44,561 nucleotides of DNA from Candidatus Hebobacteria bacterium (GTDB lineage: Bacteria > Armatimonadota > Hebobacteria > Hebobacterales > Hebobacteraceae). The notes beneath the pieces are model-generated. The model saw nothing but the letters and a program-made list of their open reading frames with translations. It did not search any database and was not told where the DNA came from. Positions 29,637 through 44,561 of this stretch are shown here, one piece after another. Both the position numbers and the translations under genes were made by a program. How positions within the stretch are numbered: the stretch's first letter is position 1; each line of letters opens with the position of its first letter. The stretch lies in the NCBI GenBank assembly GCA_029821495.1, contig JALGTG010000001.1, positions 1-44,561 on the forward strand, in the 5' to 3' direction.

Positions 29637-29648
29637 GGGGCCTCTTGA

Positions 29649-30606: not shown

Positions 30607-31680
30607 ATGAAGCGTCACCGAGACTGCCGGACCGGTTTCACCCTGATCGAGTTGCTCGTCGTCATCGCCATCATCACAGTGCTCATCGCCATCGCGCTCC
30701 CTGTCTACTCCCGCGTGCGCGAGAAGGCGCGCCAGGCCGCTTGTATGGCCAACCTCCACCAGTTGGCCGTCAGCGTCCGCATGTACGCACTCGACTTCGG
30801 ACACTATCCCGGCCCCTACGATCCCGCCACCGGACAGGGCGGCCTCAACGCCCTCTACCCCACTCACCTCGACAACCGCGCCGCACTCATCTGCCCCGAT
30901 GACCCGATCCAGACAGGCGAGGATTACGTCAATCAGACGGTCCCAGTCAAACACAACACGCTGATCACGCCGATCGAGTATCGGCAGCTCCTCCTGGCCG
31001 CCAGCAGCATGCAGATGTATGTGGATCTAGACCCCAGCGGCGAGTACTTCGTCAACCTGTGGGAAGGGGACGATCCCAACACCTCCAACGAGGAGCGAGA
31101 CCCCGCCTTCTTCGTCGAGCACTACTCCAGCTACAACACTCTCTACAACTGGATGGGCTATGTGAAGGAAACCCGCACGTACAGGTTGTGCGGCTTCGAT
31201 GACCAGGAGCTCACGCCTGGAGACAACATCGCCTTCTGGTACTCCTGGCACTGCTGGGACCCCGAAGACAGGCTGGGAATCTGGTCCGACCCGAATCTCT
31301 TCCACACCATATCCAGCCATCTCGCCTACCATCTCGCCCAGCAGGTCTACTGGGAGACCTACACCGACAACATGTACGCCACCCAGGACCCCACCCGTCT
31401 CACCGACAACCTCGGCCGACCCCTCTGGAACGGTGGCAACCCGGACCAAAACGCCTACGACTACAGGCCATACGGCATGCCAAGCGCGGCCTTCCCCGGG
31501 CTCATCAACCGTAATGCTCCCGACAACACCATCATAACCCGCTGCTTCCACCACCGGGCCTACACCGGGGGAGGAGACGCTGCCGTGGGCAAGGACATCG
31601 CTCTCAGGATCGACGGAACCTGCGTCATGATCCCAGGCCTCGCCTACGACTGGGCCGTGCAGCCGCGGCAGACCCAATAG
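30607..31680 (+). CDS. Prepilin-type N-terminal cleavage/methylation protein (DUF1559-like pilin)
   Basis: Class III signal RTG|FTLIELLVVIAII, then REKARQAACMANLHQL...MY. Start 30607 (alternative 30592). Confidence 0.88.
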   Translation: MKRHRDCRTGFTLIELLVVIAIITVLIAIALPVYSRVREKARQAACMANLHQLAVSVRMYALDFGHYPGPYDPATGQGGLNALYPTHLDNRAALICPDDPIQTGEDYVNQTVPVKHNTLITPIEYRQLLLAASSMQMYVDLDPSGEYFVNLWEGDDPNTSNEERDPAFFVEHYSSYNTLYNWMGYVKETRTYRLCGFDDQELTPGDNIAFWYSWHCWDPEDRLGIWSDPNLFHTISSHLAYHLAQQVYWETYTDNMYATQDPTRLTDNLGRPLWNGGNPDQNAYDYRPYGMPSAAFPGLINRNAPDNTIITRCFHHRAYTGGGDAAVGKDIALRIDGTCVMIPGLAYDWAVQPRQTQ

Positions 31681-31776
31681 CCCAACCCGCGCCGCCACCC
31701 GCGCGATTGCGGCGCTTCGCTTGCAGGAACAGCGACGCGTCGGCCGAAGACGCCCTATCACGAGCGGCCTCAGAGC

Positions 31777-32709
31777 ATGAGTCAACGGAGACTTGAGCCA
31801 ACCGGGTCCACCGCTCCCCTCGCGGGGCGGCGCGCGCACGCTATCGGCTTCACCCTGGTCGAGATGCTGATCGTAGTCGCCATACTCATCGTCCTCATGG
31901 CCATCGTCGTCCCCAGCTACAACGTGCTCGCCGCTCAGAATCGCCGCGCCTCCTGCGCCGCCAACATGAAAGCCATCGGCCAGGCCCTCGCGCTCTTCCG
32001 CGAAGACTACGGATGCTTCCCGCCGGACGCGACTGAGTTCCTCCCCCGGCCCACGTTTTCCAATCCGGACGACCCCGGGCAGGGCACCGGCGATGTGGTG
32101 ACCGCGGTGTACGACTCGGAGGGCAACCCGGTCAAGAGCGGAGTCCGCGGCCTCGGCCTCTACACCCTCTACTACCTTGGCGCCTACTCGGCTACACTAC
32201 CGCCACAAAGCGTCGAGCCGCGCATCCGCCACAAGCTCCGAATGCAGCTTGCGGCACAGGGACACGGCCTCAACGGACTGTCATGGTTCCGCGGCGGCGG
32301 CTACATTGACGAGCTCTCCACCTTCCATTGCCCCGCCAACGAAACCGAACTCAACGAGCTCGCCCTTCAGGACCGCAGCCGCCTCCCATATCTCGACGGC
32401 TGGAACAACTACGACATGTACTACCGCCGCAACTTCTGGCACCCGGGCCGGCCCGCCGGCGGCCCGTGGAATACCCGCCATCTCTTCCAGTCCTACCCCC
32501 CTGCCGACACGGTCGTTACCTGGTGCCCCTACCATCGTCATTCCGCCCCTCCCTCCGGTCCCGGCCTGACCGGGGAGATCTTCCCGGGCGACCAGGACAT
32601 CGTGCTCTTCGCGGACGGCAGCGTGCGCCGCATGGCCAGCCAGCCGTCCAACAAGATGTACCAGGAGCCGCCGGCCGCCTCCGGATGGCCCCAGGGCCCC
32701 ATAATGTAG
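31777..32709 (+). CDS. Prepilin-type N-terminal cleavage/methylation protein
   Basis: IG|FTLVEMLIVVAIL, SCAANMKAIGQAL, FHCP and C-terminal LFADGSV. Confidence 0.88.
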   Translation: MSQRRLEPTGSTAPLAGRRAHAIGFTLVEMLIVVAILIVLMAIVVPSYNVLAAQNRRASCAANMKAIGQALALFREDYGCFPPDATEFLPRPTFSNPDDPGQGTGDVVTAVYDSEGNPVKSGVRGLGLYTLYYLGAYSATLPPQSVEPRIRHKLRMQLAAQGHGLNGLSWFRGGGYIDELSTFHCPANETELNELALQDRSRLPYLDGWNNYDMYYRRNFWHPGRPAGGPWNTRHLFQSYPPADTVVTWCPYHRHSAPPSGPGLTGEIFPGDQDIVLFADGSVRRMASQPSNKMYQEPPAASGWPQGPIM

Positions 32710-32727
32710 CCGCACCAGGATCACTGA

Positions 32728-34812
32728 ATGCCGCTAGCCCGCGCATCGAGCACAGGAAGAATCGCAGAGAGCGCACGCTGGGCAGCCCCACATCCCCGCC
32801 CGCGGCCCAGCGGCTTCACCATCGTGGAGCTGCTCGTCGCATTGGTCGTCCTGATGATCGGCATCTGGGCGATGATGCGCATCTTCCCCCGCGGCTTCTC
32901 CGCCGTCGAGGTCAGCCAACAGCGCACCACCGCCGCCCAGCTCGCCGAAGCCGAGCTCGCCCGCTGGCGCCTCCACCCGGAGTCCCTCCCCGACGCCATT
33001 GTCGCCACCGACTATCAGGGCAACCTCATTGACGCCACTCTCATCAACGACTCGATTACCCTCCAGAGCCTCCTCGTGTACGGCGAGGCGGCCGCGCGCA
33101 TAGACGGCACCGAACACTACCAGCGCCTCGTGTTGCCCCGCGGACGCGTCAACGTTGGCACCCTCGACTTCTTCGCGCGCCCCTTCATCTACGCGCCCCT
33201 CGACCTCACCCCCAGTATCTTCGACGGTGCCCTCGAAAGGACGCAACCGGGCGCCTCGACCTCTCATCCTAACTGGCAGCCAAACAGCCTATACCTCCCC
33301 CGCACGGTCAAAGGAGAGAGGATCAACATACGCGCGCTCGCTATCAACGAGCAAGGCATTCCCTTCCATCTGCTCTCCCACGCGCCGCTCGACATCCTCC
33401 GCCAGAACGACCCGACCACCCCTGCTGACGACATCTACGTAGACGTGTACGATGCCGAGCCCTGGGAGTACCATCCAGGCGGCCTTACTGGCCGTCAGTT
33501 CTCCTTCGACCCCACCACCGGCCATCTCTACTTCGCAACGGCCGATGAGCCTCGCCAGTTCAAGGTGGACTACACCGACCCGGTCACCAATCTCCGTGTC
33601 CTTGGCTTCCCGGTCAGCGTCCCCCCGGCCTCCGCTGGCAGGCCGGGCGCCGGCACCCAAGGGCTTCCGGTCCTCCCCGGCTCGCCGGACAATCCGATAG
33701 ACCCAGCCACCTTCCAGGTCCACCAGCGCCTCATCGAGTATAACCCACTCGTCGGATGGACCCGCAGCGCGTACCGCCTCGTCGGCGAAGAAAGCAAGAT
33801 CACCGGCGAAATCCAGTTCGACCCTGACCTTCAGCTAGACCCCCGCGAACACGACATTCGCATCGTGAAGGTTGACTACAGAGTGCGCGACTGGGGCATC
33901 CTCGTCTTCGACATTCAGGTCCCGCCCGACGGCGTCGTGCGACTCCCGGTCAGGCATCTCAAGGGCCCGGCCTTCAGCAACCCCCCGCGCCAGGTCCGCC
34001 CTCAACCTGTGGACGAGAACATCAAGACGTTCCACGACTGGAACGATGTCGAAATAGAGCCGACCGATCCCCGCAGCAAATGGGGCTACGTCGTCGCCGT
34101 GGACCGCCAGACAGCCGACGTCCTCGTGGAGCACGACGGAGTCGCTTGGCCGGCCAATCCCCACGAGCGCAAACGTCGCTTCCTCGTGGACTATTCCGCG
34201 GGCATCCTTCGCTTCAACTACGACCCCAGAGACCCCGACATCGCCCCTTGGTTCAACCCTAACATCGACACCCCGGACCGCAGCGGCCGCACCTACCGCA
34301 TCTTCTGTCGCGCACAGGCCGACTGGGCCGTCCAGCTCATGGTCGCCGCCAGGCAGTACGCGCGCTCTGCTGAACCCCACCCCGATCCAAGGGCGATAGG
34401 CCCCGAGGTGGCCCAGGGAGGCCTCACTTACTCCTCGGACCCCAGCAACCCCCAGCAGCTCTACTTCCCTCTCTCCGAAGCGGGCCAGGCCGTCATGGTC
34501 GACTACTTCGCCGCCGACGGCACCTACGTCAGCGGCGAGATCCACACCATAGACCCCCCCAACGTCACCGATCTCGGCCTCTGGGCCTGCCGTCTCGCCG
34601 AGCCCTTGGCCAAGGCCCCCTACCAGATCATCTCCGTACGCGGCATCAGCATCCGTGCCCGCGCCGTCTGGGTCGGCCCCGGCAGACAGTACACGCTCCA
34701 GGAGCTAACCCGCGCCATCGACCGCGATCCCCCGGATCGTCCTCGCCCGGACTTGAATGAAACCTGGCATCAGGTTATCGTAAGCACCTACCTGACGCGT
34801 ACGCCAATCTAG
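32728..34812 (+). CDS. Large minor pilin, PilV/GspI-like N-terminus
   Basis: SG|FTIVELLVALVVLMIGIWAMM..FP.G......RTTAAQLAEAEL, followed by more than 600 aa of beta-rich sequence. Confidence 0.8.
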   Translation: MPLARASSTGRIAESARWAAPHPRPRPSGFTIVELLVALVVLMIGIWAMMRIFPRGFSAVEVSQQRTTAAQLAEAELARWRLHPESLPDAIVATDYQGNLIDATLINDSITLQSLLVYGEAAARIDGTEHYQRLVLPRGRVNVGTLDFFARPFIYAPLDLTPSIFDGALERTQPGASTSHPNWQPNSLYLPRTVKGERINIRALAINEQGIPFHLLSHAPLDILRQNDPTTPADDIYVDVYDAEPWEYHPGGLTGRQFSFDPTTGHLYFATADEPRQFKVDYTDPVTNLRVLGFPVSVPPASAGRPGAGTQGLPVLPGSPDNPIDPATFQVHQRLIEYNPLVGWTRSAYRLVGEESKITGEIQFDPDLQLDPREHDIRIVKVDYRVRDWGILVFDIQVPPDGVVRLPVRHLKGPAFSNPPRQVRPQPVDENIKTFHDWNDVEIEPTDPRSKWGYVVAVDRQTADVLVEHDGVAWPANPHERKRRFLVDYSAGILRFNYDPRDPDIAPWFNPNIDTPDRSGRTYRIFCRAQADWAVQLMVAARQYARSAEPHPDPRAIGPEVAQGGLTYSSDPSNPQQLYFPLSEAGQAVMVDYFAADGTYVSGEIHTIDPPNVTDLGLWACRLAEPLAKAPYQIISVRGISIRARAVWVGPGRQYTLQELTRAIDRDPPDRPRPDLNETWHQVIVSTYLTRTPI

Positions 34813-34837
34813 CGCCAGCCGCGCTCTGAACATCGCT

Positions 34838-36698
34838 ATGCAGACATACACCAGCCACAACACACTCACGAGACCGCACCCGCCCCGCAGCGGCTTCACC
34901 CTCGTCGAGGTGCTCGTCACCACTGTCCTCCTGGTCATCGTGCTCGGCCTTCTCCTCTACTACCCCCTCACCAGCAGCTTCGGCTACTTCCGCAGCGCCA
35001 CCGCCCGCGCCGACGCCCAGTCCACAGCCCGCATCGCCCTCGACGCCATGGCGCGCGAACTCACCGAGGCCATGTACGTACAGCTCGACATGTCCGACGA
35101 CTCCATGGTGGCATTCGTCCCCCCTCTCCGCGTCGACCCGGATGACCCCAACAGCGACATCGTCATGCCGCCTCGCGCCGACTGGAACCGCGCCATCCGC
35201 TATTGGCGCGCCCTCCACGACCCGAGGATGAACCACGACACCGGCGGCCATCTCGGCCCCGGGAATACCTACTACCTGGCCCGCACCGTCGTCGAACGAT
35301 TGTACGACGACCCCGCCGACGACCCCAGCTTCCTCGCTCCCTTCGCAACCGACGACCCCTGGAACCGCTGGAACGACGACTGGGCGGACGACCAGGTGGC
35401 CGCGGCCGTCGATGGCAAGGACAACTGGTCCCCCATCAGCCGCTTGGTCCATACCGACGTGGACTGGCGCGCGAACAGCGGCCAGGTGGCCCTCCGAAAC
35501 GCCACCCTCCAGCCCGGATTCCCCTACCTCTGGGTCCAGTACAAGCTCGACCGGGGCGAAATCGGCGAGTGGGAGGCCAACAGACTCTACCGCGACAACG
35601 CCGTCGCCCTCACCCCAAACGTGCTCGAGTACGACATCTCTCGCCTCGCATTCACCCCCATAGCAGTCTCCGGCGAGTTGCTCCGCCCGGCCCGCATCGC
35701 AGGCCAGCAGGACGCCTCCGTCTAGCCTCGGCGTCTACTTCCCCGACTGGGCCCGGGACCCGTTCCTCCTCATCTCCAGGTACGACCCCGATGCCCCCCT
35801 AGAGGACCGCTACCAGAAGCATGCCATCGGCATGTTCGACCCCGACTCTCGCACCATGAAGGTCTTCAACCTCGACGACCTTCGCCCCGGCCCTCAGTTC
35901 GACCCCAACGCCGTCGCCTGGATCTACGACACAGACTGGTACTACACTGATCACCGGCGCGGCCTTGCCCGCGATACCCAATGGATCGGCTTCGGCGTGG
36001 ACTGGGTCAAAGGCGCCCTGCGATTCGACTTCCCGCCCCCGCCGGACGGCTCCTACCCCGAACAGCTCTTCCAACTGCGGGCCCAATGGCTCGTCTCGGC
36101 CAACACTCTCGACGACGGGCCAAAGCGGGACGCCCCGCTGCCTCTGTGGCGCCTGAGATCGGCCCCCGGCCCGGTCCTCACGGCCTTCCTCATCCCCGAC
36201 ACGGTCGAAGTCTGGACCGACACCGACACTGAACCCGGCCCAGGCGTCACAATGAGCGGCGCCCCCCAGATCCTTCTCACGCGGGTGGGCTGCACCCCGC
36301 GCGAAAGCAGCTATCAGTTCCAGCTCGGCACTGACCCCGAACTAGGACCGGCCGATCCCACCGAGGCCACGTATGCTCCCAACTACGGCTGGTTGCGATT
36401 GCCGCGCACCCTCGGAGACGGCGCCTCCGCGCAGAACCACACCTTCTGGGTCAGCTTCCGCTGGCACGACAACGGCGTCTGGTACAAAGAACCGGGCGCC
36501 GCGGCCGGGACCGGGCAGTACCACTGGGACCTGGTCTCAGCCTTCTACCGCACCGCCGCCGTCATTGACATAGGCCTCACGGTGACCCGCGCCGACCCGG
36601 GCGCTCCCTCCACCGACCGCATCGCTCAGTCCGCCAACATGACAAGACGCGTAAAACTGCACAACGTGCTCCGCAGGATTCGCCATGCCGAGGACTAG
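34838..36698 (+). pseudogene. PilW/GspJ-like large minor pilin interrupted by a frameshift near 35725 (ORFs 34838-35725 and 35664/35832-36698)
   Basis: SG|FTLVEVLVTT..AQSTARIALDAMARELTEA N-terminus. After TAG 35723-35725 the +1 frame continues with coding-like codons (LGVYFPDWARDPF..) to a PilW-like end (TRRVKLHN). Could be a sequencing error. Confidence 0.7.
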
Positions 36699-39600
36699 TC
36701 ACTTCGCACGACGCTACCTCCTCCACACCCACCTCGCACGGCGCGGCCAGGCACTCCTCGTCGCCGTGCTCGTGCTCTTCGCAGTCGCCACTCTCGCCGC
36801 CCTCTTCACCGCCATCATCGGAGCCCAGCTCTCCCAGGTCGCTCGCCACGGCGATGTCACCAAGCTCCGCAACCTCACCGAAGCCGGCCTCTGGCTTGCC
36901 AACGAGCAGCTCACCTACTCCGTCAAGGGCGCCGATTGGCGGCCGCCCGACGACCCCTACCTCTTCGGCGACGGCCGTATCGAGCTGTCCGTCACTTACT
37001 GGCCTCCGCCCCCGTCCCTCGCCCAGGGCGCTTTCTCCCCCAGCCCCCAGAGCGGACGCTTCATCCTCATCACCTCAACCGCCACCTTCCCCGACTACCC
37101 CTTCCTCCGCTACACCATGGCTGCCCTCAAACCCCTTCTCCTCACCGACTACGCCCGCTTCATCACCGACCGCCGCGAGACCGGCAGGCCCGCCCGCCTC
37201 GGCGTCTCGGGAGTGGAGTTGGGCGGCACGCCCCGCCCCGACTACCTCTTCCGTGTTCAAGGGCCCATCCGCTCCAACACCGATCTCGTCGCCTACGGCC
37301 GCTCCAGCGTTACCCTGCAAACCGCCGATGACCCGGCCGAGACCGGTTCGACATGGGCCCAGTTGGGCATCCCGCGCGACGACCGCATTGAGGTCGCCGG
37401 ATTCCTGCGGCCCGACCCCTCCCACCCGGTCGAGAACCGCGGCGCCGACGCCCTCGCCCTCACGGTCAGCGGCGAGCCCCGCGCCTCCGACCTCTTCCTC
37501 CCCCTGGACGAGGCGCAGGCCGACGACTACGCCGCCGCTTTCCCGGACTGGTCGCTTGACCCCTCCATCCTACATACCTCCAGCCGCATACTTGCTGACC
37601 TCCCCGGATACACCTCGGTGGGCGGATGGTTCCCCGGCCCCGCCAATTCCGTCCCCCGCGTCCAGCCGCCGGACCTCCTCGCCGAACATCCGGACACCTT
37701 CCGCAAGCGCTACTTGCTCCTCACCCGCGATTCCGGCGTCTTCGAGCCCGACGCCGCCACCGGCGACCTCCACAACACCGGCGAGTACGGCTGGGGCTTC
37801 ATGAACCTCGGCGGCATCTACATAGACAACATCTACGACATCCAGTACGACCACGACCTCGAGATGCTTCGCCTCAACTGGCTGCGCTCTGTTGGTGCCC
37901 ATGACCCCCTCGGAGACGAGCGCCCTGACGCCGACGCCCCACTCTCCGGCCCCGCCGACTGGTGGGACAAGACCGGCCGCTACTACTCTCCCCCAGCCGT
38001 CGAGATCGTCCTCCACGGCGAGCAAGACTGCCCCTATATCGAGATCATCCGTCACGACCCCCGCTCGGCGAATGGCGAGCAATACTACTGGTGCGACCTC
38101 TCGGGCGCGCCGATAACCCCCACCTCTCACCCCGCCGATTACGTGCCGACCCCCTATGAGTCAAACTGCGGGCCCGGAGCCGCGCCCGGCACATTTCGCG
38201 TCAAGAACAACACCGCCATCTTCCCCTTCCCACCCAACGGCGTCATCTACGCCGAGGGCAATGTCCGCATCCGCGGCATCATGCCGCCCATCAGGGACGA
38301 GCTGGGCAATTCCGGCACGAGTGTCCCCCTCGCCACAGCCGAGAAAATGCCCTATTTCGCACCATCTAGAACCGACGAAGGCCGCGCCCGCCGCTTCGAC
38401 CTCCAGGTCGTATCCGCCGGCACCATCTACGTCGAGGGCGATCTCCTGACCCCGGCTTCCGCCGGCCTCATAGCCGACACCGTTGAGGTAGACCGCCACT
38501 ACGGCTCCCGCCTCGCACTCCTCGCCCGCGACTACGTCTGCGTCAACACCACCGCCCTCAACCCTAGGCCGATCCAACTCCTCGACCCCTTCCTTGACCC
38601 CGCCACCGATGAGTACTACTTCTACAACGACCGCTACCCGGACTACCCGCCCGGCGGCTATCCACGTCACCTCGTGTTCCAGGGAACCCGAGACCCCGTC
38701 TTCAACAGCGCGGACTATGCGAAAGCGTGGAACCCTCCCACTGACCCCCCATTCGAAACCGATCCCCTTAACATCCAGTTCCTCTACCAGAACGTCAGGC
38801 TGCAGTATCCATACCTGAGCGACCAAATCCCCGACCTTCGCCTGATGCTGGGCCACTCGGGATTCTACGCGCTTGGCGACCCCGAAGGCGGATTCGATGG
38901 CGCGCCGCTAGGCGACCCCCTGGTGGATGACGAAGGCACCGATGAGCCTGCGGTGGATGTGGACATCTACTTCGACAATATCGTGGCCGGCACCACACGG
39001 CTTTGGGATGTCGCTGACACAGACCGCTATACATTCGTGCGCCCTGTGGCTACCCCAGGAGCCGCCGACCAATCCGATCACTGGTACCTCGAAGACGACC
39101 GCCTCGAACACCTGCCCAATGGCTTCCAACAGATGCAGGTGCACCCCAGCGACCTGCCCACCCCATACCTCACCGGCAATAATGACGTCATCACCTTCAC
39201 CTCCCGTGTCCACCCCGTCCGGGACTACGACGGCGACGGCAATATCGACGGCTGGCATATCTTCCCTCGCGACCTCGCCTACATCCTCGGCCCCGTCGCC
39301 GTCGCGCCCCCGTGCCGTCTCCAAGGCAGACCGACCCCCGCGGCCCCGCTCCCGGTTAGCATCGAAGCCATGATCTACGCCCAGAACGGCTCCTGGTTCA
39401 TCATCCCGGGCCCCTGGTTCAACGAAGACCCCGAAGAGAATACCTACACCGGGGACTCCCCCGGCTATCGCGAGCCCCTCAACATCCAGATCTCCGTCTA
39501 CGGAGCCGTCACCGAGAACATGCCCGCCGACATCGGCGCCGCCGCCGAGTGGACCAGCAAGTGGAGCGGCCCCCAAACCCGAGGATTCGGCGGGTACCTC

Positions 39601-39741
39601 AGGTACGCCTACGATCCCCTCCTCCGCTGGTCCCGCTGGGACCCCGACAGCAAAACATGGGCCCCGCGGTTCCCCAACCTCCCTGTCACTTCCGACATGC
39701 TCATCTGGGGCGAAAGAGTCTCCGGCAGGGCAGGATCGTGA
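36685..39741 (+). CDS. Giant PilX/GspK-like (ComZ-like) minor pilin, 1018 aa
   Basis: RRG|QALLVAVLVLF lacks Glu5, as in PilX/GspK; LTEAGL helix; solenoid-type motifs GVIYAEGNVRIRG, GTIYVEGDLL, IEAMIYAQNGS, ISVYGAVTEN and YAYDP. Confidence 0.78.
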   Translation: MPRTSHFARRYLLHTHLARRGQALLVAVLVLFAVATLAALFTAIIGAQLSQVARHGDVTKLRNLTEAGLWLANEQLTYSVKGADWRPPDDPYLFGDGRIELSVTYWPPPPSLAQGAFSPSPQSGRFILITSTATFPDYPFLRYTMAALKPLLLTDYARFITDRRETGRPARLGVSGVELGGTPRPDYLFRVQGPIRSNTDLVAYGRSSVTLQTADDPAETGSTWAQLGIPRDDRIEVAGFLRPDPSHPVENRGADALALTVSGEPRASDLFLPLDEAQADDYAAAFPDWSLDPSILHTSSRILADLPGYTSVGGWFPGPANSVPRVQPPDLLAEHPDTFRKRYLLLTRDSGVFEPDAATGDLHNTGEYGWGFMNLGGIYIDNIYDIQYDHDLEMLRLNWLRSVGAHDPLGDERPDADAPLSGPADWWDKTGRYYSPPAVEIVLHGEQDCPYIEIIRHDPRSANGEQYYWCDLSGAPITPTSHPADYVPTPYESNCGPGAAPGTFRVKNNTAIFPFPPNGVIYAEGNVRIRGIMPPIRDELGNSGTSVPLATAEKMPYFAPSRTDEGRARRFDLQVVSAGTIYVEGDLLTPASAGLIADTVEVDRHYGSRLALLARDYVCVNTTALNPRPIQLLDPFLDPATDEYYFYNDRYPDYPPGGYPRHLVFQGTRDPVFNSADYAKAWNPPTDPPFETDPLNIQFLYQNVRLQYPYLSDQIPDLRLMLGHSGFYALGDPEGGFDGAPLGDPLVDDEGTDEPAVDVDIYFDNIVAGTTRLWDVADTDRYTFVRPVATPGAADQSDHWYLEDDRLEHLPNGFQQMQVHPSDLPTPYLTGNNDVITFTSRVHPVRDYDGDGNIDGWHIFPRDLAYILGPVAVAPPCRLQGRPTPAAPLPVSIEAMIYAQNGSWFIIPGPWFNEDPEENTYTGDSPGYREPLNIQISVYGAVTENMPADIGAAAEWTSKWSGPQTRGFGGYLRYAYDPLLRWSRWDPDSKTWAPRFPNLPVTSDMLIWGERVSGRAGS

Positions 39742-39781
39742 GAGCCGACGCCGTACCCTCTTAGACGTCTTCTGGCCTTCC

Positions 39782-39810
39782 TTGCGGAACAAAAACGCCA
39801 GTGCTATAAT
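39782..39810 (+). promoter_or_regulatory. Promoter of the pilMNO operon
   Basis: TTGCGG, 17 bp, TATAAT with an extended -10 TG. Confidence 0.7.
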
Positions 39811-39899
39811 CTAACACTTCGGGAGGCGGGCGAACCCCAGCCGGCCGCCGCGCGTGGCGGCCCATGTTCGGCCCGCTCACAACTTGAGGGCGAGCAGCT

Positions 39900-41180
39900 A
39901 TGGCGGACAAGCAGGTTCTTGGCCTGGACATCGGCACCAGCCGCATCAAGTTCGCAGAAGCCCGCATGACCCGCGGCGGACCCGTCATCACCGCCGCCGG
40001 CATCGGCATGACCCCGCGCGACGCCATCGCCAACGGAGTCATCGTTGACCCCGCTGCCCTCGGCATGGCCGTAAGGGACCTCCTCTCCTCACACGGAGCC
40101 AAGACCAAGAACGTCGTCAGCTCCGTCGCCAGCCAGTCCTCCCTTGTCGTCCGGCCCATCGAGCTCCCCCGCATGACCCGCGAAGAGCTCGCCGACACCA
40201 TGAAGTGGGAAGTCGACCGGCACATCCCCTTCGCCGCCAGCGAAGTCGTCATGAGCTACGAGCCCCTCATCCCCCCGGAGGAACTCCCCGAGGACGCCGC
40301 CAACATGGAAGTCCTCCTCGCCGTCGCCCAGGAAGACATGATCGACGCCCACGTGCAGACCCTCTTCGCCGCCGGCCTCGACCCCGTCGCCCTCGACGTC
40401 GAGCCCCTCTCCGCATGCCGTTCCCTCATAGACATAGATCGCGATCGCGGCGCCTACGACCACATCTACGGCCTTCTCAGCATCGGTGCCACCACTACCG
40501 ACCTCAGCATCATCCGCAATGGACTCCTCTCCTTCACCCGCGCCATCCCCGTCGCCGGAGACAACGTCACCAACTCCATCGCCGAGGCACTCGGATACGA
40601 GTTCCCCGAGGCCGAACGAGCCAAGGTCGAGCACGGCGCCGTCTTCGTCGAAGGCGCCCCCGCCCTCGAAGCTCCCCGTGAGCCCGAAGCCGCGCCCCCG
40701 GCCCCCATCCCCGAACCTGAAGTCCAGGCCATCTCGCCCCCGGAAGAGGCCCAACCCGAGGAGAGAGTCTTCGACCTCGGCGCCGACGCCGGACCGTCCG
40801 CCCCTCCTCCGCCGGACCAGCAAGCGCCACCGCCCTTGCCCTCCGTCCACAAGCCCACCGCCGGCTCCACCGAGCGGCAGATCTACGACGCCATGCTCCC
40901 CACTTTGGCCGAACTCTCCACAGAGGTCCGCCGCTCCATCGAGTACTACGTCAACCGCTATCCCGATTCTCGCGTCGACAAGATACTGCTCTTCGGCGGC
41001 ACTGCCAGGCTGCCACGCCTCGCCGAGTTCCTCGGCAACGAGGTGGGCCTCGCCACAGAAGTCGGCAGCCCCTTCCAGCGCCTCGCAATCGATCAGATGG
41101 GTGTTACCGCCGATCTCGTCGAAGCCGACGCTTGCTTCATGCCCATTGTCGTCGGCCTGGCGATACGAGATATGCTCTGA
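39900..41180 (+). CDS. pilM: Type IV pilus assembly protein PilM
   Basis: Actin-like motifs LGLDIGTSRIK, HIPF, VLLAVA, LDVEP, IGATTTD, EVRRSIEYY, LFGGTA and VGLAIR. Confidence 0.93.
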   Translation: MADKQVLGLDIGTSRIKFAEARMTRGGPVITAAGIGMTPRDAIANGVIVDPAALGMAVRDLLSSHGAKTKNVVSSVASQSSLVVRPIELPRMTREELADTMKWEVDRHIPFAASEVVMSYEPLIPPEELPEDAANMEVLLAVAQEDMIDAHVQTLFAAGLDPVALDVEPLSACRSLIDIDRDRGAYDHIYGLLSIGATTTDLSIIRNGLLSFTRAIPVAGDNVTNSIAEALGYEFPEAERAKVEHGAVFVEGAPALEAPREPEAAPPAPIPEPEVQAISPPEEAQPEERVFDLGADAGPSAPPPPDQQAPPPLPSVHKPTAGSTERQIYDAMLPTLAELSTEVRRSIEYYVNRYPDSRVDKILLFGGTARLPRLAEFLGNEVGLATEVGSPFQRLAIDQMGVTADLVEADACFMPIVVGLAIRDML

Positions 41181-41200
41181 ATCACGGCCGGAGACGACCT

Positions 41201-42007
41201 ATGATAAAGATCAACCTGCTGCCCGAGTACATCGTCGAGCGCCGGCGCGTCAAGGTCTGGATCGCTGGCCTGGCCGTGCTCCTCATCCTTGAGGTCCTCA
41301 TCCTCGCCGCCTATGTCTGGGGCCCCCTTCCATTCTCTCTCAACCAGAGGCTGGCGAAGGCGGAGAAACGGGAGAGCGACGCCATCGCCGCCGCCCTGGA
41401 GGTCGAGGCAATCGAGACCGAGACCGCCCAGGTCAGAAGCCGCTTCGCTGCAAAGAACTCCTGGGTCCGGTGGGTCAACGAGGCCGACAAGTTGCCCGCG
41501 GAGTGGGTCGACTACCTCAACAGCATCAATGACACCATCCCTGCCGACGTTGTCATTCACGGGCTCCAGCTCCCCAGCGGCGGCGTCCTCAACCTCAGCG
41601 GCTCCACCAGTGACATGATGGCCGCCCTCCGCTGGTACCTCAACATGCTCCGCTGCGATATCGTCCAGCCCGGCCTCCAGTCTGTCCAGTTCAACCCGGG
41701 CGCGCAAGCCGTTACGACGGGCGGAATCACCGACCCGATGGCCATGTCAGTCTCCATGACCGTTGCCTTGAAGCCCCAGGCCTACTCAGTAGTCGGCCGC
41801 GTGCCCGCACCGCCTGCCGGTATCGCGGGCGGTGCCACCGCCCGGGGAAGGGGCGGCGGCGGACGCATGGGCGGAAGCCCCGGTGCCGGTGGACGAGGCG
41901 GCGGCATGCGAGGCGGCAGGGGAGGCGGCATGCGAGGCGGCGGCATGCGAGGTGGTGGCATGCGAGGCGGTGGTATGCGAGGCGGTGGTATGCGAGGTGG
42001 CATGTGA
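41201..42007 (+). CDS. pilN: PilN-like protein with a C-terminal (MRGGG)n tail
   Basis: IKINLLP PilM-binding motif, TM, coiled coil and W..YL..I..TIP.DV....L......LNLSG ferredoxin-like domain. Confidence 0.85.
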   Translation: MIKINLLPEYIVERRRVKVWIAGLAVLLILEVLILAAYVWGPLPFSLNQRLAKAEKRESDAIAAALEVEAIETETAQVRSRFAAKNSWVRWVNEADKLPAEWVDYLNSINDTIPADVVIHGLQLPSGGVLNLSGSTSDMMAALRWYLNMLRCDIVQPGLQSVQFNPGAQAVTTGGITDPMAMSVSMTVALKPQAYSVVGRVPAPPAGIAGGATARGRGGGGRMGGSPGAGGRGGGMRGGRGGGMRGGGMRGGGMRGGGMRGGGMRGGM

Positions 42008-42016
42008 GGCGGTGGC
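41897..42016 (+). repeat. 15-bp tandem repeat GGYGGYGGYATGCGA encoding GGGMR (pilN 3' end)
   Basis: ATGCGA at 41906, 41930, 41945, 41960, 41975 and 41990, then ATGTGA at 42002. Confidence 0.95.
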
Positions 42017-42095
42017 CCGCCGGCACGATGGTGACGGCCCGCCGCGCGGTCCCGAACGTCAGGCGCGCTAGCAGCGGAGAGCGAGGAGCAGCACA

Positions 42096-42950
42096 GTGAG
42101 CCTACAACGGATCACGCGAGTTCAAGTGCTTATCGTGGGCGCGGCCGTTATCGCGGTCGTCGCCGTTGTCTTCCTGTTCGTCCTCATCAAACCCCAGCTC
42201 GCGGACATCGCCGCCATCGTCAGCTCGGCGGAGGAGAACGAGCAATACGCAGCAACGCGTCCCCAAAAAGAGCAAGCCCGTGCCACCGCCCTCGAGCAGG
42301 AGAGACAGGTCACCGAGGAATGGGACGAGATCGTGGACACCCGCATGCCTGACATCGGCCCCCATCTCCTCAAGGACCCAATCGCCGCCACCTTGCGCTT
42401 CTGGGACCTCCCGGCCGAAGAGGAAGCTGTCATCCGCAATTGGTTCAACGACTCGGGCGCCGTGGTCACCGGCTACGGCTTCCCCACCTGGCCCACCGCA
42501 ATGCCCAGTTCCTTCCCTCCCAGAAACATGCTCGCACTCTCTCCCCTCGACTGGAACCTCTCCGTCTCGGTGGACGACCTCCCAGAGCTGCTGGACTGGG
42601 TGCTCAGCATACCCAGAGCCCCCCGCTTCATGGTGATGCACAGCGTCACAATCCAGGGCTCCCATGGCCCCGGTCAGCCCCTCGTCGCTAGCGTGCCCGT
42701 TACCCTCTACCAGTGGACCGGCGTCGAGCCTACGGGAGGGGGCGCCGCCCCGGCAGAAGGCACGGCCGCCCAGGCCGGCGGCGGCATGGGCCCTGGTATG
42801 GGCGGCGGCATGAGAGGCGGCGGCATGCGAGGCGGCGGCATGCGAGGCGGCGGCATGCGAGGCGGCGGCATGAGAGGTGGTGGTATGCGAGGTGGCGGCA
42901 TGCGAGGTGGCGGCATGCGAGGTGGCATGAGAGGCGGCGGCATGAGGTAG
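42096..42950 (+). CDS. pilO: PilO-like protein with a C-terminal (MRGGG)n tail
   Basis: Position after pilN, N-terminal TM ending IKPQ, coiled coil and LSVSV....L..W...I..APRFM....VTI pattern. RBS GAGGAG. Confidence 0.7.
   Translation: MSLQRITRVQVLIVGAAVIAVVAVVFLFVLIKPQLADIAAIVSSAEENEQYAATRPQKEQARATALEQERQVTEEWDEIVDTRMPDIGPHLLKDPIAATLRFWDLPAEEEAVIRNWFNDSGAVVTGYGFPTWPTAMPSSFPPRNMLALSPLDWNLSVSVDDLPELLDWVLSIPRAPRFMVMHSVTIQGSHGPGQPLVASVPVTLYQWTGVEPTGGGAAPAEGTAAQAGGGMGPGMGGGMRGGGMRGGGMRGGGMRGGGMRGGGMRGGGMRGGGMRGGMRGGGMR
42801..42947 (+). repeat. 15-bp tandem repeat encoding GGGMR x10 (pilO 3' end)
   Basis: ATG(C/A)G units at 42810, 42825, 42840, 42855, 42870, 42885, 42900, 42915, 42927 and 42942. 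Confidence 0.95.
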
Positions 42951-43044
42951 CCCACAGCACTCGTGGGCCTCTCCAGCCCCCTGCCGCAAGGTGATGCCCC
43001 CGGGGCGTGGAAACAGCACCAGGCCGTTCATCGGGGAGTGACCA

Positions 43045-43767
43045 ATGAACCCGGCTGACCGAAACAAGATACTGATCATAGGTGGCATTGCAGTCGTCGC
43101 CATTGCTATCATCGTGGTCGTCCTCATGCGAGGCCGAAAGCCGGCCTGGCAAGAGGGACCCGCTGGCGGATTCTCGACCGACGTGGCCCAGGCCCCCGGC
43201 GCCGACGAAGCCGGCTACCCGGCCGCCGGACCAGCCGCAGGTGCGCCAGCCGGACCCCTCCAGGCTGCAGGCCCAGAAGTCGGAGCCGGAGCGGCCGAGG
43301 CCGAGGCGCCTGCCGCCCCGATCGACGTCAGCGTCGGCGTTGTCAAGATGGGCGATGGCATTGACGAGGCCTCCCGCCCCGATTCTTTCCGTACCTTCGA
43401 GCCTGTGATCCCACCCCCCCCACCGGAAGTCGTCACGCCGCTCCCGGTCGCCATGCTGGGCCCCTTCCGGCCCGCCCAGCCCGAAGAAACAGCCGTCCTC
43501 GGCCGCCGCCGGGCCGCTGGCGTCATGTTCAACGAGCGAGCCTGGGCCATCCTCCAGGAGGGCGACAAAACATTCATCGTCAAGCCCGGCGACATTGTTG
43601 ACGGCGTCCGCATCTCTGCCATCGGCAGAGACGCCATCTACGTCACCGACGCCGAGGGGCGCCGCTGGGAGGTCCCCCTCCGAGGTACCGGACCCTCCAC
43701 CGAGATGCGCGGCCCAAGAACCGACTACATCGAAGCGATGCCCGAGCTGCCCCCTGCCGCTCCCTGA
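43045..43767 (+). CDS. PilP/GspC-HR-like protein with an N-terminal TM anchor
   Basis: PilP position in the operon; TM, Ala/Pro linker, R.D.F.TF motif and beta domain AGVM....WAILQ.....IVKPGD.V.G.RI.AI....I.V. Confidence 0.6.
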   Translation: MNPADRNKILIIGGIAVVAIAIIVVVLMRGRKPAWQEGPAGGFSTDVAQAPGADEAGYPAAGPAAGAPAGPLQAAGPEVGAGAAEAEAPAAPIDVSVGVVKMGDGIDEASRPDSFRTFEPVIPPPPPEVVTPLPVAMLGPFRPAQPEETAVLGRRRAAGVMFNERAWAILQEGDKTFIVKPGDIVDGVRISAIGRDAIYVTDAEGRRWEVPLRGTGPSTEMRGPRTDYIEAMPELPPAAP

Positions 43768-43807
43768 CGCGGCTCCGGCACATCTCCAAGAGAACAAACA
43801 AACGCAC

Positions 43808-43836
43808 TTAACAGTCTAACCTCTGTGTGGTAGAAT
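43808..43836 (+). promoter_or_regulatory. Promoter of the secretin-like gene
   Basis: TTAACA, 17 bp, TAGAAT with an extended -10 TG. Confidence 0.65.
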
Positions 43837-43892
43837 ACGCGCCCGGCGACCATCGGGCGGGATATGGCGTCAGCAGCAGGAGGTTTATGGCA

Positions 43893-44561
43893 ATGGCTCG
43901 CAACAGAACGCGACTCTTGGCGACTCTCGCAGTGGTCGCTCTGGCCCTGACCGGCGTGCTCTTCGCCGGCATCCGCGCCTCCGCCCAGATCGAGGACCGG
44001 CCCATTACCCTCGACCTGCGCGACGCCGACCTCGAGGACGCCCTCCGGCTCATCTTCAAAGACACCCCCTACAGCTTCACCCTCGAGCCCGGCATCGGCG
44101 GAACAGTCACTCTCACCCTCAACAACGTGACCTTCAGCCAGGCGCTCCGCGCCATCCTGGAAATGCATGGGCTTACCTACCGCAAAGAAGACCGCATCTA
44201 CCACATTACCTCCGAGCCCATCGAGCCCCCCGGCTTCGGCACCGAACCACCTGTGCAGCCCACACCGCGCGTCGACATATACTGGTTCGGACCCGGCGGC
44301 CGCTACGAGCTGCAGTACCTAGACTGCCGCCTCGTCATCGCCTGGTTTGGTGGCTCGCAGATCCCCTCCTCCCTCATCCCCTTTCCTGCTGAAGGCGGCA
44401 CCGGCGGCGGCACGGGCGGCCGCACCGGTGGCACAGGCGGCATCGGCGGCGGCACGAGCGGCGGCATAGGCGGCTCCAGCATGGGCGGCGGCATAGGCGG
44501 CAGCACTGGCGGCATCGGCGGCGGCAGCGGTGGCATCGGTGGCGGCGGCGGTGGCCGTGGC
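43893..44561 (+). CDS. Secretin/TonB short N-terminal (STN/N0) domain protein, PilQ-like, 3'-truncated by the window edge
   Basis: Not in the ORF track because there is no stop in the window. AGGAGG RBS, signal peptide MARNRTRLLATLAVVALALTGVLFAGIRASA, then ITLDLRDADLEDALRLIF..TVTLTLNNVTFSQALRAIL...GLTYRKE..IYHI, then a Gly-rich tract. Confidence 0.8.
   Translation, partial: MARNRTRLLATLAVVALALTGVLFAGIRASAQIEDRPITLDLRDADLEDALRLIFKDTPYSFTLEPGIGGTVTLTLNNVTFSQALRAILEMHGLTYRKEDRIYHITSEPIEPPGFGTEPPVQPTPRVDIYWFGPGGRYELQYLDCRLVIAWFGGSQIPSSLIPFPAEGGTGGGTGGRTGGTGGIGGGTSGGIGGSSMGGGIGGSTGGIGGGSGGIGGGGGGRG
44393..44561 (+). repeat. Gly-rich low-complexity coding tract (GGTGG/GGIGG units)
   Basis: Translates as GGTGGGTGGRTGGTGGIGGGTSGGIGGSSMGGGIGGSTGGIGGGSGGIGGGGGGRG to the window end. 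Confidence 0.9.

What the first reader, a model, noticed from the sequence alone, without database searches (positions are those of the whole stretch)
41820..42950. Matching (MRGGG)n RGG-like tails on both PilN and PilO
Seen: PilN ends in six MRGG(G) units and PilO in ten. Synonymous variation (GGC/GGT, CGA/AGA/AGG) keeps the peptide constant, suggesting protein-level selection rather than simple slippage. Knowledge: PilN/PilO C-termini are extracytoplasmic and form a ring around the pilus; RGG-rich disordered regions bind nucleic acids and can phase-separate. Inference: a cationic disordered brush around the pilus channel that could capture incoming DNA or polyanions, or form a gel-like seal together with the Gly-rich secretin-like protein. 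I know of no described T4P with this feature.
Basis: partly seen in the sequence, partly recalled or inferred. Interest (0 to 1): 0.75.

Follow-up and report, generated by a model that had tools for sequence, protein, structure and literature searches.

The report
Gly/Arg-rich tails on pilus alignment proteins
Two neighbouring membrane proteins of a type IV pilus machine from an uncultured Armatimonadota bacterium end in long, floppy, positively charged glycine-arginine-methionine tails that are conserved in all their relatives, an undescribed feature whose function is still untested.

Summary
PilN (41201-42007) ends in six MRGG units. The PilO-like protein (42096-42950) ends in ten GGGMR-type units.

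The tails are not assembly artefacts. All 70 full-length relatives and all six related genome loci carry Gly/Arg(/Met)-rich tails of 39-86 residues with net charge +2 to +15.

The perfect match between the two tails is a DNA-level effect. Both arrays are amplified from one 15-nt unit, GGC GGC GGC ATG CGA, which uses an Arg codon that is rare in this window.

More distant Armatimonadota PilN proteins, including that of cultured Armatimonas rosea, also have low-complexity tails. Those tails are mostly Gly/Met/Pro-rich and close to neutral. The positive charge is therefore a trait of one clade, layered on a phylum-wide Gly-rich tail.

A third periplasmic component, a small STN/N0-domain protein, also ends in a Gly-rich tail. 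In relatives it is a gene separate from the true secretin.

My best reading is that these are disordered periplasmic tethers or a mesh around the machine. DNA capture is neither supported nor excluded.

PilN identity is solid. PilO identity rests on gene order and weak hits.

The parts
39900..41180 (+). PilM, the cytoplasmic actin-like platform protein. It carries a Pro/Glu/Ala-rich insertion of about 80 aa.
   Evidence: Pfam PilM_2 E=1.6e-48. NCBIfam TIGR01175 pilM E=1.3e-60, 205 bits against a cut-off of 133.
41201..41815 (+). PilN: N-terminal PilM-binding motif (MIKINLLP), one transmembrane helix, and the periplasmic folded part (residues 1-205).
   Evidence: M1 I2 L6 L7 P8 are invariant in 35 relatives. 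A hydrophobic segment spans residues 15-48. The family profile hits M. xanthus PilN (3jc8) at E=6.7e-4. The profile of distant relatives hits it at E=3.7e-16. Pfam PilN does not hit the window protein itself.
41816..42004 (+). PilN C-terminal tail: 63 aa, 56% Gly, 17% Arg, 13% Met, net charge +11. It ends in six MRGG units.
   Evidence: On the charge-hydropathy (Uversky) plot it falls on the disordered side: 0.175 net charge per residue against a boundary of 0.055.
41858..41872 (+). GGRMG, a short motif conserved at the start of the PilN tail.
   Evidence: GRMG is present in 32 of 35 PilN-family tails, against 6 of 35 PilO-family tails. G220 and R222 are nearly invariant.
41894..42016 (+). Period-15 tandem array that encodes the PilN repeat. 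It runs 9 nt past the stop codon at 42005-42007.
   Evidence: TRF: 8.8 copies, score 127. The stop TGA sits in phase where the unit has CGA, and GGC GGT GGC follows it.
42096..42731 (+). PilO-like protein: short N-terminus, one transmembrane helix, and an acidic periplasmic folded part (residues 1-212). The periplasmic part has net charge -13.
   Evidence: It lies between pilN and the pilP-like gene. A hydrophobic segment spans residues 4-44. Pfam T2SSM hits are weak, in 8 of 35 family members with best E=0.0037. PDB GspM scores E=0.15. There is no Pfam or NCBIfam PilO hit.
42732..42947 (+). PilO-like C-terminal tail: 72 aa with net charge +9. An Ala/Thr/Gly linker is followed by ten GGGMR-type units.
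42801..42944 (+). Period-15 tandem array (consensus GGCGGCGGCATGCGA) that encodes the PilO repeat.
   Evidence: TRF: 9.8 copies, 87% matches, score 204. It is up to 85% identical over 104 nt to the PilN array.
43045..43767 (+). PilP/GspC-like adaptor: N-terminal membrane anchor, Ala/Gly/Pro-rich linker and C-terminal domain. It has no Gly/Arg tail.
   Evidence: Assigned by position. There is only a weak NCBIfam GspC hit, E=0.0039 and far below cut-off, and no Pfam hit. It is conserved in all six loci.
43827..44561 (+). STN/N0-domain protein with a Gly-rich (G/T/I/S) tail that starts at about 44394. The window end cuts it off.
   Evidence: Pfam STN E=3e-14. TRF arrays lie at 44394-44546. Orthologues are complete separate genes that end in Gly-rich tails (Gly/Arg in L001 and L004, Gly/Thr in L006) and precede the secretin gene: L001 9713-10486, L004 9742-10515, L006 9707-10708.

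Best explanation
**What it is**
- These are genuine Gly-rich C-terminal extensions, conserved and intrinsically disordered.
- They sit on the two bitopic inner-membrane alignment proteins of a type IVa-like pilus machine, PilN and a PilO-like partner.
- The organism is an uncultured Armatimonadota bacterium.
- A third Gly-rich tail sits on a small periplasmic STN/N0-domain protein encoded two genes downstream.
- Each protein has its N-terminus in the cytoplasm and one membrane helix, so the tails lie in the periplasm.

**How the tails arose**
- A Gly-rich tail on PilN is a phylum-wide trait. In most lineages it is Gly/Met/Pro-rich and near neutral.
- The clade that holds this window has an Arg-rich, Lys-free, polycationic version, about +10 per tail.
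- The perfect (GGGMR)n arrays of this genome, and their match between the two genes, come from recent tandem amplification and homogenisation of a single 15-nt unit in both genes, which lie 850 bp apart.
- Selection keeps composition and charge, not an exact sequence.

**How it most likely works (inferred, not shown)**
- The tails act as flexible, multivalent tethers or a mesh inside the periplasmic cage of the machine.
- In this clade they would stick by charge to acidic partners: the acidic folded domains of PilO and PilP, the acidic pilins, or peptidoglycan.
- That would stabilise or cushion the link between the inner-membrane platform and the secretin complex.
- A short conserved GRMG motif at the start of the PilN tail may be a specific docking site.
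For: **Shown**
- All 34 full-length PilN relatives and all 34 full-length PilO relatives carry Gly/Arg-rich tails, at 45-69% identity in the folded part. With the window's own proteins that makes 70 of 70.
  - PilN tails: median 56 aa, 56% Gly, 17% Arg, net +3 to +15.
  - PilO tails: median 58 aa, 46% Gly, 14% Arg, net +2 to +12.
- All six genome loci, all from Armatimonadota MAGs, show the same gene order and tails.
- The tails hold Arg:Lys at 286:3 and 351:1, against 426:267 and 441:285 in the folded parts. Asp+Glu number only 57 and 30 in the tails.
- Both window arrays share one 15-nt unit and an atypical Arg codon choice.
- An exhaustive profile search found 179 PilN-like representatives.
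  - Of 199 PilN-like proteins have a last-50-aa segment that is at least 60% Gly+Met+Pro+Ala.
  - Of the same 199, 156 have net charge between -3 and +3.
- Of the 13 distant hits with an organism name, 10 are Armatimonadota, including Armatimonas rosea, and 3 are just 'bacterium'.
- On a tree built from the first 150 residues, cationic tails cluster.
  - The label needs 10 changes, against a shuffled mean of 40.1; 0 of 500 shuffles were as low.
  - The window's PilN sits in a well-supported set of 41 rows, of which 39 are cationic.
- Topology follows from the invariant MIKINLLP motif and a single hydrophobic helix.
- The tails fall on the disordered side of the charge-hydropathy plot.
- Acidic candidate partners exist: PilO periplasmic domain -13, PilP-like -8, three of four pilin-like proteins -13 to -15, and the 1018-aa protein -51.
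- GRMG occurs in 32 of 35 PilN tails.

**Analogy**
- Authors of a Thermus thermophilus study propose that the high Gly and Pro content of PilW makes it a flexible bridge between PilQ and PilMNO (PMC13039148, passages read).
Against: - No binding, localisation or phenotype data exist for any of these proteins.
- Disorder is inferred from composition only.
- The PilO assignment is weak by sequence.
- Tail charge does not compensate body charge across PilN-like proteins: Spearman rho=0.06, p=0.50, n=133. That gives no support to an electrostatic-partner model.
- The match between PilN and PilO tails of one genome is only modest overall.
  - Mean 3-mer similarity is 0.706 for same-genome pairs and 0.626 for cross-genome pairs, permutation p about 0.01.
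  - The own partner ranks first in only 3 of 14 pairs, and 7 of the 14 pairs were inferred from equal contig length.
- Because composition drifts widely across the phylum, from Gly/Arg to Gly/Met/Pro to acidic ends, a weakly constrained spacer with no specific partner fits the data equally well.
Confidence: 0.45

Rival explanations
1. Polyanion or DNA capture. The 20-odd Arg-rich RGG-type tails per machine would form a cationic brush around the pilus channel. The brush would hold incoming DNA, or another polyanion, when the pilus retracts.
For: - Each tail carries +9 to +11 charge and nine RGG motifs.
- The tails use Arg almost exclusively rather than Lys.
- A retraction ATPase, PilT, is present in the cluster.
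- There is a precedent: the Arg-rich, conformationally flexible C-terminal tail of the minor pilin FimT binds DNA and is needed for transformation in Legionella (PMC8897410, passages read).
Against: - No ComEA, ComEC or DprA-type gene stood out in the window ORFs scanned, nor by eye among the ORF translations of the 16-kb loci. The genomes as a whole were not searched.
- Distant PilN relatives keep the tail but not the charge. The ancestral role of the tail is therefore not polyanion binding.
- The FimT tail is on the exposed pilus, not in the periplasm.
- Nothing here tests binding.
Confidence: 0.12
2. Tolerated low-complexity expansion without a specific function. GC-rich repeats at the 3' ends of these genes would grow and shrink by slippage, and selection would only remove harmful variants.
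For: - The arrays are young and homogenised, with identical consecutive units.
- The PilN array is cut by an in-phase CGA-to-TGA stop and continues 9 nt beyond it.
- Unit sequence, length (39-86 aa) and composition vary widely between relatives.
- Arg and Met codons are one mutational step from Gly and Arg codons. This last point is my inference from the code table.
Against: - None of the 70 full-length family members has lost its tail, although any nonsense mutation would remove it.
- Tails persist across the phylum in PilN.
- In 44.5 kb, Gly-rich stretches in plausible coding frames occur only in three consecutive periplasmic pilus-machine proteins.
- Charge sign is strongly biased, with Arg far above Asp+Glu.
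- A GRMG motif is conserved.
- All 6 or more distinct unit variants are synonymous. The chance is about 6e-4 if 13 of 45 possible substitutions are synonymous. This figure carries ascertainment bias, because units were recognised by their peptide.
Confidence: 0.2
3. A methionine-based function. Either the Gly/Met-rich tails bind Cu(I) or buffer periplasmic oxidants. Or their flexible Met side chains form a soft hydrophobic surface that shields the hydrophobic N-terminal helices of pilins while they leave or re-enter the membrane.
For: - Met is the second conserved ingredient across the phylum: 94 of 199 PilN-like tails have at least 8% Met.
- Of the close-family tails, 27 of 35 PilN and 25 of 35 PilO have at least 5% Met.
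- The PilO tail gives a weak, sub-threshold hit to the periplasmic MXKDX pentapeptide-repeat family (E=0.014, 15 bits against a cut-off of 41).
Against: - Several family members have almost no Met in the tail, for example P0031, P0033, P0024, P0052 and P0063 at 0-2%.
- Spacing in the window is M-x4-M, without His, Asp or Cys. That is not the MxxM or MxM pattern of known copper sites, as I recall it; I did not test this.
- The window ORFs that were scanned include no recognisable copper-handling gene.
Confidence: 0.08
4. Assembly or gene-calling artefact.
For: Short tandem repeats are prone to mis-assembly, so the repeat number in this contig is not verified. Two related loci from long-read MAGs show frameshifts in or near these genes: L006 in pilO, and L005 in the STN gene and the secretin.
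Against: The same architecture appears in independent assemblies from many sources: 70 proteins and six genome loci. The tails are in frame with conserved domains. The database clusters that hold the window's own proteins contain 2 and 4 member sequences.
Confidence: 0.01

Closest known systems
[quoted passage not shown]
   Same: - The gene order is pilM-pilN-pilO-pilP-like-(STN)-secretin.
- PilN has the N-terminal INLLP-type PilM-binding motif.
- Both proteins have a single membrane helix.
- The PilN profile matches M. xanthus PilN.
   Different: - The solved M. xanthus PilN chain is 225 aa and, as far as I recall, ends with its folded domain. Here 63 and 72 extra residues of Gly/Arg/Met repeat follow the fold.
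- The PilO-like protein is not recognised by the Pfam or NCBIfam PilO models.
- The study of unstructured regions in P. aeruginosa PilO concerns internal loops, not tails (PMC5805733, abstract read).
Thermus thermophilus PilW, a Gly/Pro-rich flexible periplasmic adaptor
   Same: It is a periplasmic pilus-machine component. Authors attribute its flexibility and extended or disordered conformation to its high Gly and Pro content, and propose that it bridges PilQ and PilMNO (PMC13039148).
   Different: - It is a different protein, at the PilP position, with no homology tested here.
- Its flexible part is not a C-terminal tail on PilN or PilO.
- It is not Arg-rich and not a perfect tandem repeat.
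Arg-rich flexible C-terminal tail of the minor pilin FimT (Legionella pneumophila)
   Same: It is a type IV pilus component whose conserved Arg-rich, conformationally flexible C-terminal tail binds DNA by charge (PMC8897410).
   Different: - The FimT tail is 13 residues long, carries a GRxR motif, and sits on a pilin exposed on the fibre.
- Here the tails are 60-70 residues of repeat on inner-membrane alignment proteins in the periplasm.
- There is no sequence relationship.
Eukaryotic RGG/RG boxes
   Same: The composition is similar: clustered RGG triplets in a Gly-rich disordered region. Each tail here holds nine RGG.
   Different: - This is resemblance by composition only.
- The predicted location is the bacterial periplasm, where RNA is absent.
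- Met as the regular third residue is unusual for RGG boxes, as I recall.
- Nucleic-acid binding and phase separation are untested.
TIGR02953 pentapeptide MXKDX repeat proteins
   Same: They are periplasmic proteins with a 5-residue repeat that contains Met. There is a weak hit to the PilO tail.
   Different: The hit is far below the family cut-off (15.3 against 41 bits). The residues differ (K/D against R/G), so the tail is not a member.

Membership tests
PilN (Pfam PF05137; T4aP alignment subcomplex) | N-terminal cytoplasmic PilM-binding motif (INLLP type) | tested here: met
   The protein starts MIKINLLPEY. M1 I2 L6 L7 P8 are invariant in 35 relatives and in 7 loci.
PilN (Pfam PF05137; T4aP alignment subcomplex) | Single transmembrane helix after the motif, so the C-terminus is periplasmic | tested here: met
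   There is one hydrophobic segment, residues 15-48, preceded by ERRRVK. This is a hydropathy window only, not a dedicated predictor.
PilN (Pfam PF05137; T4aP alignment subcomplex) | Gene directly downstream of pilM | tested here: met
   PilM lies at 39900-41180 and PilN starts at 41201. The order is the same in six loci.
PilN (Pfam PF05137; T4aP alignment subcomplex) | Sequence match to PilN models or solved PilN | tested here: met
   The match holds only through profiles.
- The window protein alone has no Pfam PilN hit at E up to 0.1.
- 3 of 35 close relatives hit Pfam PilN weakly.
- 7 of 30 distant relatives hit it, best E=1.1e-5.
- Profile A2 matches 3jc8 PilN at E=6.7e-4.
- Profile A5 matches 3jc8 PilN at E=3.7e-16.
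- Profile A3 links the window family to the A5 proteins.
PilN (Pfam PF05137; T4aP alignment subcomplex) | Ferredoxin-like periplasmic fold | not testable with these tools
   Structure prediction accepted no jobs.
PilO / GspM (Pfam PF04350 / PF04612) | Gene between pilN and pilP, with a bitopic N-in topology | tested here: met
   The position is shown. One hydrophobic segment spans residues 4-44, after R5 and R8.
PilO / GspM (Pfam PF04350 / PF04612) | Sequence match to PilO or GspM models | tested here: inconclusive
   - There is no Pfam or NCBIfam PilO hit.
- T2SSM hits 8 of 35 relatives, best E=0.0037, all below cut-off.
- PDB GspM scores E=0.15 with profile A1.
- Profile A4 gives no PilO or GspM match.
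- hhalign against the PilN profile aligns only the membrane helix, probability 25%.
PilO / GspM (Pfam PF04350 / PF04612) | Forms a heterodimer with PilN | not testable with these tools
RGG/RG-box proteins (eukaryotic type) | Three or more RGG triplets closely spaced in a Gly-rich disordered region | tested here: met
   Each tail holds nine RGG, spaced by GM. I recalled the definition and did not take it from a call.
RGG/RG-box proteins (eukaryotic type) | Access to, and binding of, nucleic acid | not testable with these tools
   The predicted location is periplasmic.
Methionine-rich Cu(I) sites (MxxM / MxM with His) | Short Met spacing, often with His | tested here: not met
   The spacing is M-x4-M, and the repeat holds no His, Cys or Asp. 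I recalled the motif definition.
TIGR02953 MXKDX pentapeptide repeat protein | Score above the family cut-off | tested here: not met
   15.3 bits against a cut-off of 41.

The most novel reading that the evidence does not exclude
Armatimonadota pilus machines would contain a periplasmic gel analogous to the disordered meshwork of nuclear pores. Dozens of Gly-rich tails, from PilN, PilO and the small STN-domain protein, would crowd into the cage around the pilus and form a cohesive, selective gasket or condensate.

In the Arg-rich clade this mesh would be polycationic. It would grip the acidic fibre, or sweep DNA or other polyanions off the retracting pilus.

If 12 copies each of PilN and PilO are present, as in the M. 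xanthus model, the two tails alone would add about 250 arginines per machine.
Probability: 0.1. Interest if true: 0.8.

Novelty: new variant of a known kind. Interest (0 to 1): 0.5.

Why it matters
PilN and PilO are usually treated as compact scaffold proteins. Here a whole phylum attaches long disordered Gly-rich tails to PilN at least. One clade has turned the PilN and PilO tails, and in two of three loci the tail of a neighbouring STN-domain protein, into polycations.

If the tails matter for function, they would show that disordered low-complexity regions take part in building a trans-envelope machine in the periplasm. Such regions have hardly been studied in that compartment. They would also offer a natural series of charge variants (Gly/Arg, Gly/Met/Pro, acidic ends) for testing what such regions do.

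Armatimonas rosea is cultured and carries the Gly/Met version, so the question can be tested. If the tails prove dispensable, the case is still a clean example of concerted repeat evolution between two adjacent genes.

Tried and rejected
Fold and disorder are therefore inferred from sequence only.
- **Complex prediction** for PilN with PilO was not available.
I could not see the other members of the window proteins' own 90% clusters, nor organism names for unnamed distant hits.
- **The protein Atlas** did not hold the window's PilO. A stored homologue's tail gave no usable feature hit, and its structure matches all had TM below 0.5, as expected for a disordered segment.
- **Charge compensation** between tail and body across PilN-like proteins showed no correlation (rho=0.06, p=0.50, n=133).
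- **hhalign of the PilO profile against the PilN profile** aligned only the membrane helix.
- **PDB search with the tail-free PilO profile** gave no PilO or GspM match.
- **A sorting-signal reading** (PEP-CTERM or GlyGly-CTERM type) was rejected, because the tails contain no hydrophobic helix.
- **Covalent attachment to peptidoglycan of the Lpp type** was rejected, because Lys is virtually absent from the tails.
- **The antisense PPPRM ORFs** were rejected as mirror images of the repeats.
- **A peptidoglycan-binding AMIN domain** was not found in the four related secretin ORFs scanned at E up to 0.01. This fits, but does not show, a need for another wall contact.
- **Literature** searches gave no report of such tails.
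  - No paper holds PilN + PilO + glycine-rich + arginine.
  - The listings showed nothing relevant.
  - The Hebobacteria paper, PMC10290634, has no occurrence of 'pili' or 'pilus'. Its supplements were not opened.

**Not checked**
'Phylum-wide' is therefore shown for PilN only.
- The window's own secretin lies beyond the window end.
Full report
**1. What is in the window**

Positions 25383-44561 hold one + strand type IV pilus cluster.

| Coordinates | Gene | Evidence |
|---|---|---|
| 25383-27125 | PilB | T2SSE plus MshEN domains |
| 27085-28359 | PilT-like ATPase | T2SSE |
| 28389-29636 | PilC | T2SSF |
| 29649-30500 | PilD prepilin peptidase | |
| 30592-35725 | four proteins with the N-terminal methylation motif | two also carry DUF1559 |
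| 35832-39741 | two unknown proteins, 288 and 1018 aa | no family hit |
| 39900-41180 | PilM | Pfam 1.6e-48; TIGR01175 at 205 bits, cut-off 133 |
| 41201-42007 and 42096-42950 | the two genes of the finding | see below |
| 43045-43767 | PilP/GspC-like protein | position; weak GspC hit |
| 43827-44561 | STN/N0-domain protein | cut by the window end |

**2.

The first gene (268 aa) starts MIKINLLPEY and ends in six MRGG units. The second (284 aa) ends in ten units that finish in MR.

TRF finds period-15 arrays of 8.8 and 9.8 copies, scoring 127 and 204. Every other TRF row in the window scores 54 or less, except the Gly-rich tail of the STN protein at 104. A scan of all six frames found long Gly-rich stretches in plausible coding frames only in these three consecutive genes.

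**3. What the two proteins are**

PilN is secure.
- The PilM-binding motif is invariant.
- One membrane helix follows it.
- The gene follows pilM.
- The family profile matches M. xanthus PilN (3jc8) at E=6.7e-4.
- A profile of more distant relatives matches it at E=3.7e-16.
- Pfam PilN does not see the window protein itself. It sees 3 of 35 close relatives and 7 of 30 distant ones.

The second protein is PilO-like by position and architecture.
- Sequence support is weak.
- T2SSM hits 8 of 35 relatives, best E=0.0037.
- PDB GspM scores E=0.15.
- The tail-free profile gives no PilO or GspM match.

Fold and pairing could not be tested.

With N-in topology and one helix each, both C-termini are periplasmic. 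This is an inference.

**4. The tails are a family trait, not an artefact**

I searched with the folded parts only.
- PilN gave 37 proteins, including the window's own.
- PilO gave 36, including the window's own.
- I dropped P0011 and P0047, whose tails start Gly/Arg-rich and then switch to unrelated sequence; these are probably frameshifts or chimeras.
- I also dropped P0037, which is truncated at 183 aa.

The remaining 35 + 35 all carry tails.

| Family | Median length | Range | Gly | Arg | Met | Ala | Net charge |
|---|---|---|---|---|---|---|---|
| PilN tails | 56 aa | 39-84 | 56% | 17% | 7% | 6% | +3 to +15 |
| PilO tails | 58 aa | 41-86 | 46% | 14% | 7% | 17% | +2 to +12 |

The repeat unit differs from genome to genome: MRGGG, GGRGGM, PRGGGG, GGGGGGR and others.

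Six genome loci, all Armatimonadota MAGs including Candidatus Hebobacteria, show the same gene order and tails. In L006 the pilO gene is split by a frameshift.

Lys is almost absent from the tails, at 3 and 1 residues against 286 and 351 Arg. The folded parts have Arg:Lys of about 1.6:1. Asp+Glu are 5- to 12-fold rarer than Arg in the tails. A short GRMG motif opens the PilN tail in 32 of 35 members, against 6 of 35 PilO tails.

**5. Why the two tails match in this genome**

Both arrays are built from the unit GGC GGC GGC ATG CGA.
- Of 18 Arg codons in the two tails, 13 are CGA and none is CGC or CGG. In background genes 47 of 165 Arg codons are neither CGC nor CGG (p=1.4e-9).
- The arrays are up to 85% identical over 104 nt.
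- The match is therefore DNA-level homology: one founder unit amplified and homogenised in two genes 850 bp apart.

All six or more distinct unit variants are synonymous.
- With 13 of 45 possible substitutions synonymous, the chance is about 6e-4.
- This figure is biased, because units were recognised by their peptide.

The PilN stop is a TGA in phase where the unit has CGA, and the array continues 9 nt beyond it.

Across 14 genome pairs, same-genome PilN and PilO tails are only modestly more alike than cross-genome pairs.
- Mean 3-mer similarity is 0.706 against 0.626, p about 0.01.
- The own partner ranks first in 3 of 14.
- Seven of the pairs were inferred from equal contig length.
- Several pairs share their endings (RGF with RGF, RGGRGG with RGGRGG), while others do not match.

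In relatives the codon bias is weaker or absent.

**6. The wider picture changes the interpretation**

An exhaustive profile search with the tail-free PilN domain found 179 representatives at E up to 1e-3, with 10 at E up to 1e-30. The distant ones mostly end in Gly/Met/Pro/Ala-rich low-complexity sequence. Some also carry an internal insert of the same kind, or an acidic end.

I pooled proteins P0075-P0306 and dropped 33 of the 232 for length or for lacking the N-terminal motif. Of the 199 PilN-like proteins kept:
- 149 have a last-50-aa segment that is at least 60% G+M+P+A;
- 156 have net charge -3 to +3;
- 20 have net charge +4 or more;
- 23 have net charge -4 or less.

A third search seeded with 30 distant members returned 101 proteins. 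Of the 13 with organism names, 10 are Armatimonadota, including cultured Armatimonas rosea and Abditibacteriales, and 3 are just 'bacterium'.

I built a FastTree tree of 148 rows from the first 150 residues only.
- Rows outside 225-450 aa, rows without the motif at position 1, and P0011 were left out.
- Cationic tails cluster strongly: 10 changes against a shuffled mean of 40.1, with 0 of 500 shuffles as low.
- The window's PilN lies in a supported set of 41 rows, of which 39 are cationic.

So a Gly-rich tail on PilN is phylum-wide, and the polycationic Arg version belongs mainly to one clade.

**7. A third tail**

These are L001 9713-10486, L004 9742-10515 and L006 9707-10708.
- It has a signal-like N-terminus and an STN domain.
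- It ends in a Gly-rich tail of roughly 130 aa or more: Gly/Arg in L001 and L004, Gly/Thr in L006.
- The true secretin follows it, with its own N0 and Secretin domains and, in L001 and L004, its own signal-like N-terminus.
- None of the four secretin ORFs scanned shows an AMIN domain at E up to 0.01.

**8. How it probably works**

What is shown is conservation, composition, charge and topology. Everything about function is inferred.

The tails fall on the disordered side of the charge-hydropathy plot. Possible partners in the same compartment are acidic:
- PilO periplasmic domain, -13;
- PilP-like protein, -8;
- three of four pilin-like proteins, -13 to -15;
- the 1018-aa protein, -51.

I favour flexible, multivalent tethers or a mesh that helps hold or cushion the periplasmic part of the machine, with a confidence of 0.45. 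The proposed role of Gly/Pro-rich PilW in Thermus is the nearest analogy (PMC13039148).

Against a simple electrostatic model, tail charge and body charge are uncorrelated across PilN-like proteins.

DNA capture remains possible. The Arg-rich tail of FimT is a precedent (PMC8897410). It has no contextual support here, and the neutral tails of distant relatives weaken it. A tolerated, weakly constrained expansion is the main rival, at 0.2.

**9. Novelty**

Searches of the held literature found no description of such tails. The one paper on unstructured regions of PilO concerns internal loops (PMC5805733, abstract).

This is a new variant of a known kind of system. It is of moderate interest and can be tested in cultured Armatimonadota.

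Noticed in passing
window 43827-44561; L001 9713-10486; L004 9742-10515; L006 9707-10708: A small STN/N0-domain protein with a long Gly-rich tail is encoded as its own gene between the PilP-like gene and the true secretin. The secretin has its own N0 domain. I know of no described pilus component of this kind.
   Followed up: partly
window 42005-42016: The PilN stop codon TGA sits in phase exactly where the repeat unit has CGA, and the array continues (GGC GGT GGC) after it. The tail appears to have been shortened by a nonsense mutation inside the array.
   Followed up: partly
window 40650-40920 (PilM residues about 255-340): PilM carries a Pro/Glu/Ala-rich low-complexity insertion of about 80 aa relative to the TIGR01175 model. 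The protein is 426 aa and aligns to 348 model positions.
   Followed up: no
window 29645-30592 versus 29649-30500: The longest ORF here (315 aa, pI 12, net +50) is the wrong frame. The overlapping 283-aa frame is the prepilin peptidase PilD (Peptidase A24, E=3e-32).
   Followed up: yes
protein P0083: A 5572-aa protein has 36 separate stretches that match positions 116-182 of the PilN periplasmic-domain profile (E=3.9e-22). This looks like a giant protein built from repeats of a PilN-like beta domain.
   Followed up: no
window 36685-39741 and the orthologues upstream of pilM in L001-L006: A conserved, very acidic protein of about 1000 aa (net -51) has one N-terminal hydrophobic helix and no family hit. 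It always sits just upstream of pilM and ends in the conserved sequence ...LIWGERVSG. It may be a giant pilus-associated protein.
   Followed up: no
distant PilN-like proteins, e.g. P0117, P0184, P0232: Many distant Armatimonadota PilN proteins carry a second Gly/Met-rich low-complexity insert inside the periplasmic domain, before the last conserved strand, in addition to the C-terminal tail.
   Followed up: no
window 8902-10729 (- strand): A TonB-ExbD-ExbB gene set is present, consistent with a two-membrane envelope. An SMC gene lies at 12646-16290, and TPR proteins at 19516-22291 lie upstream of the pilus cluster.
   Followed up: no
L005 9905-12700; L006 7989-8805: The two long-read MAG loci show frame breaks in the STN gene, in the secretin (L005) and in pilO (L006). 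These are probably sequencing errors in Gly-rich or homopolymer runs rather than real pseudogenes.
   Followed up: no
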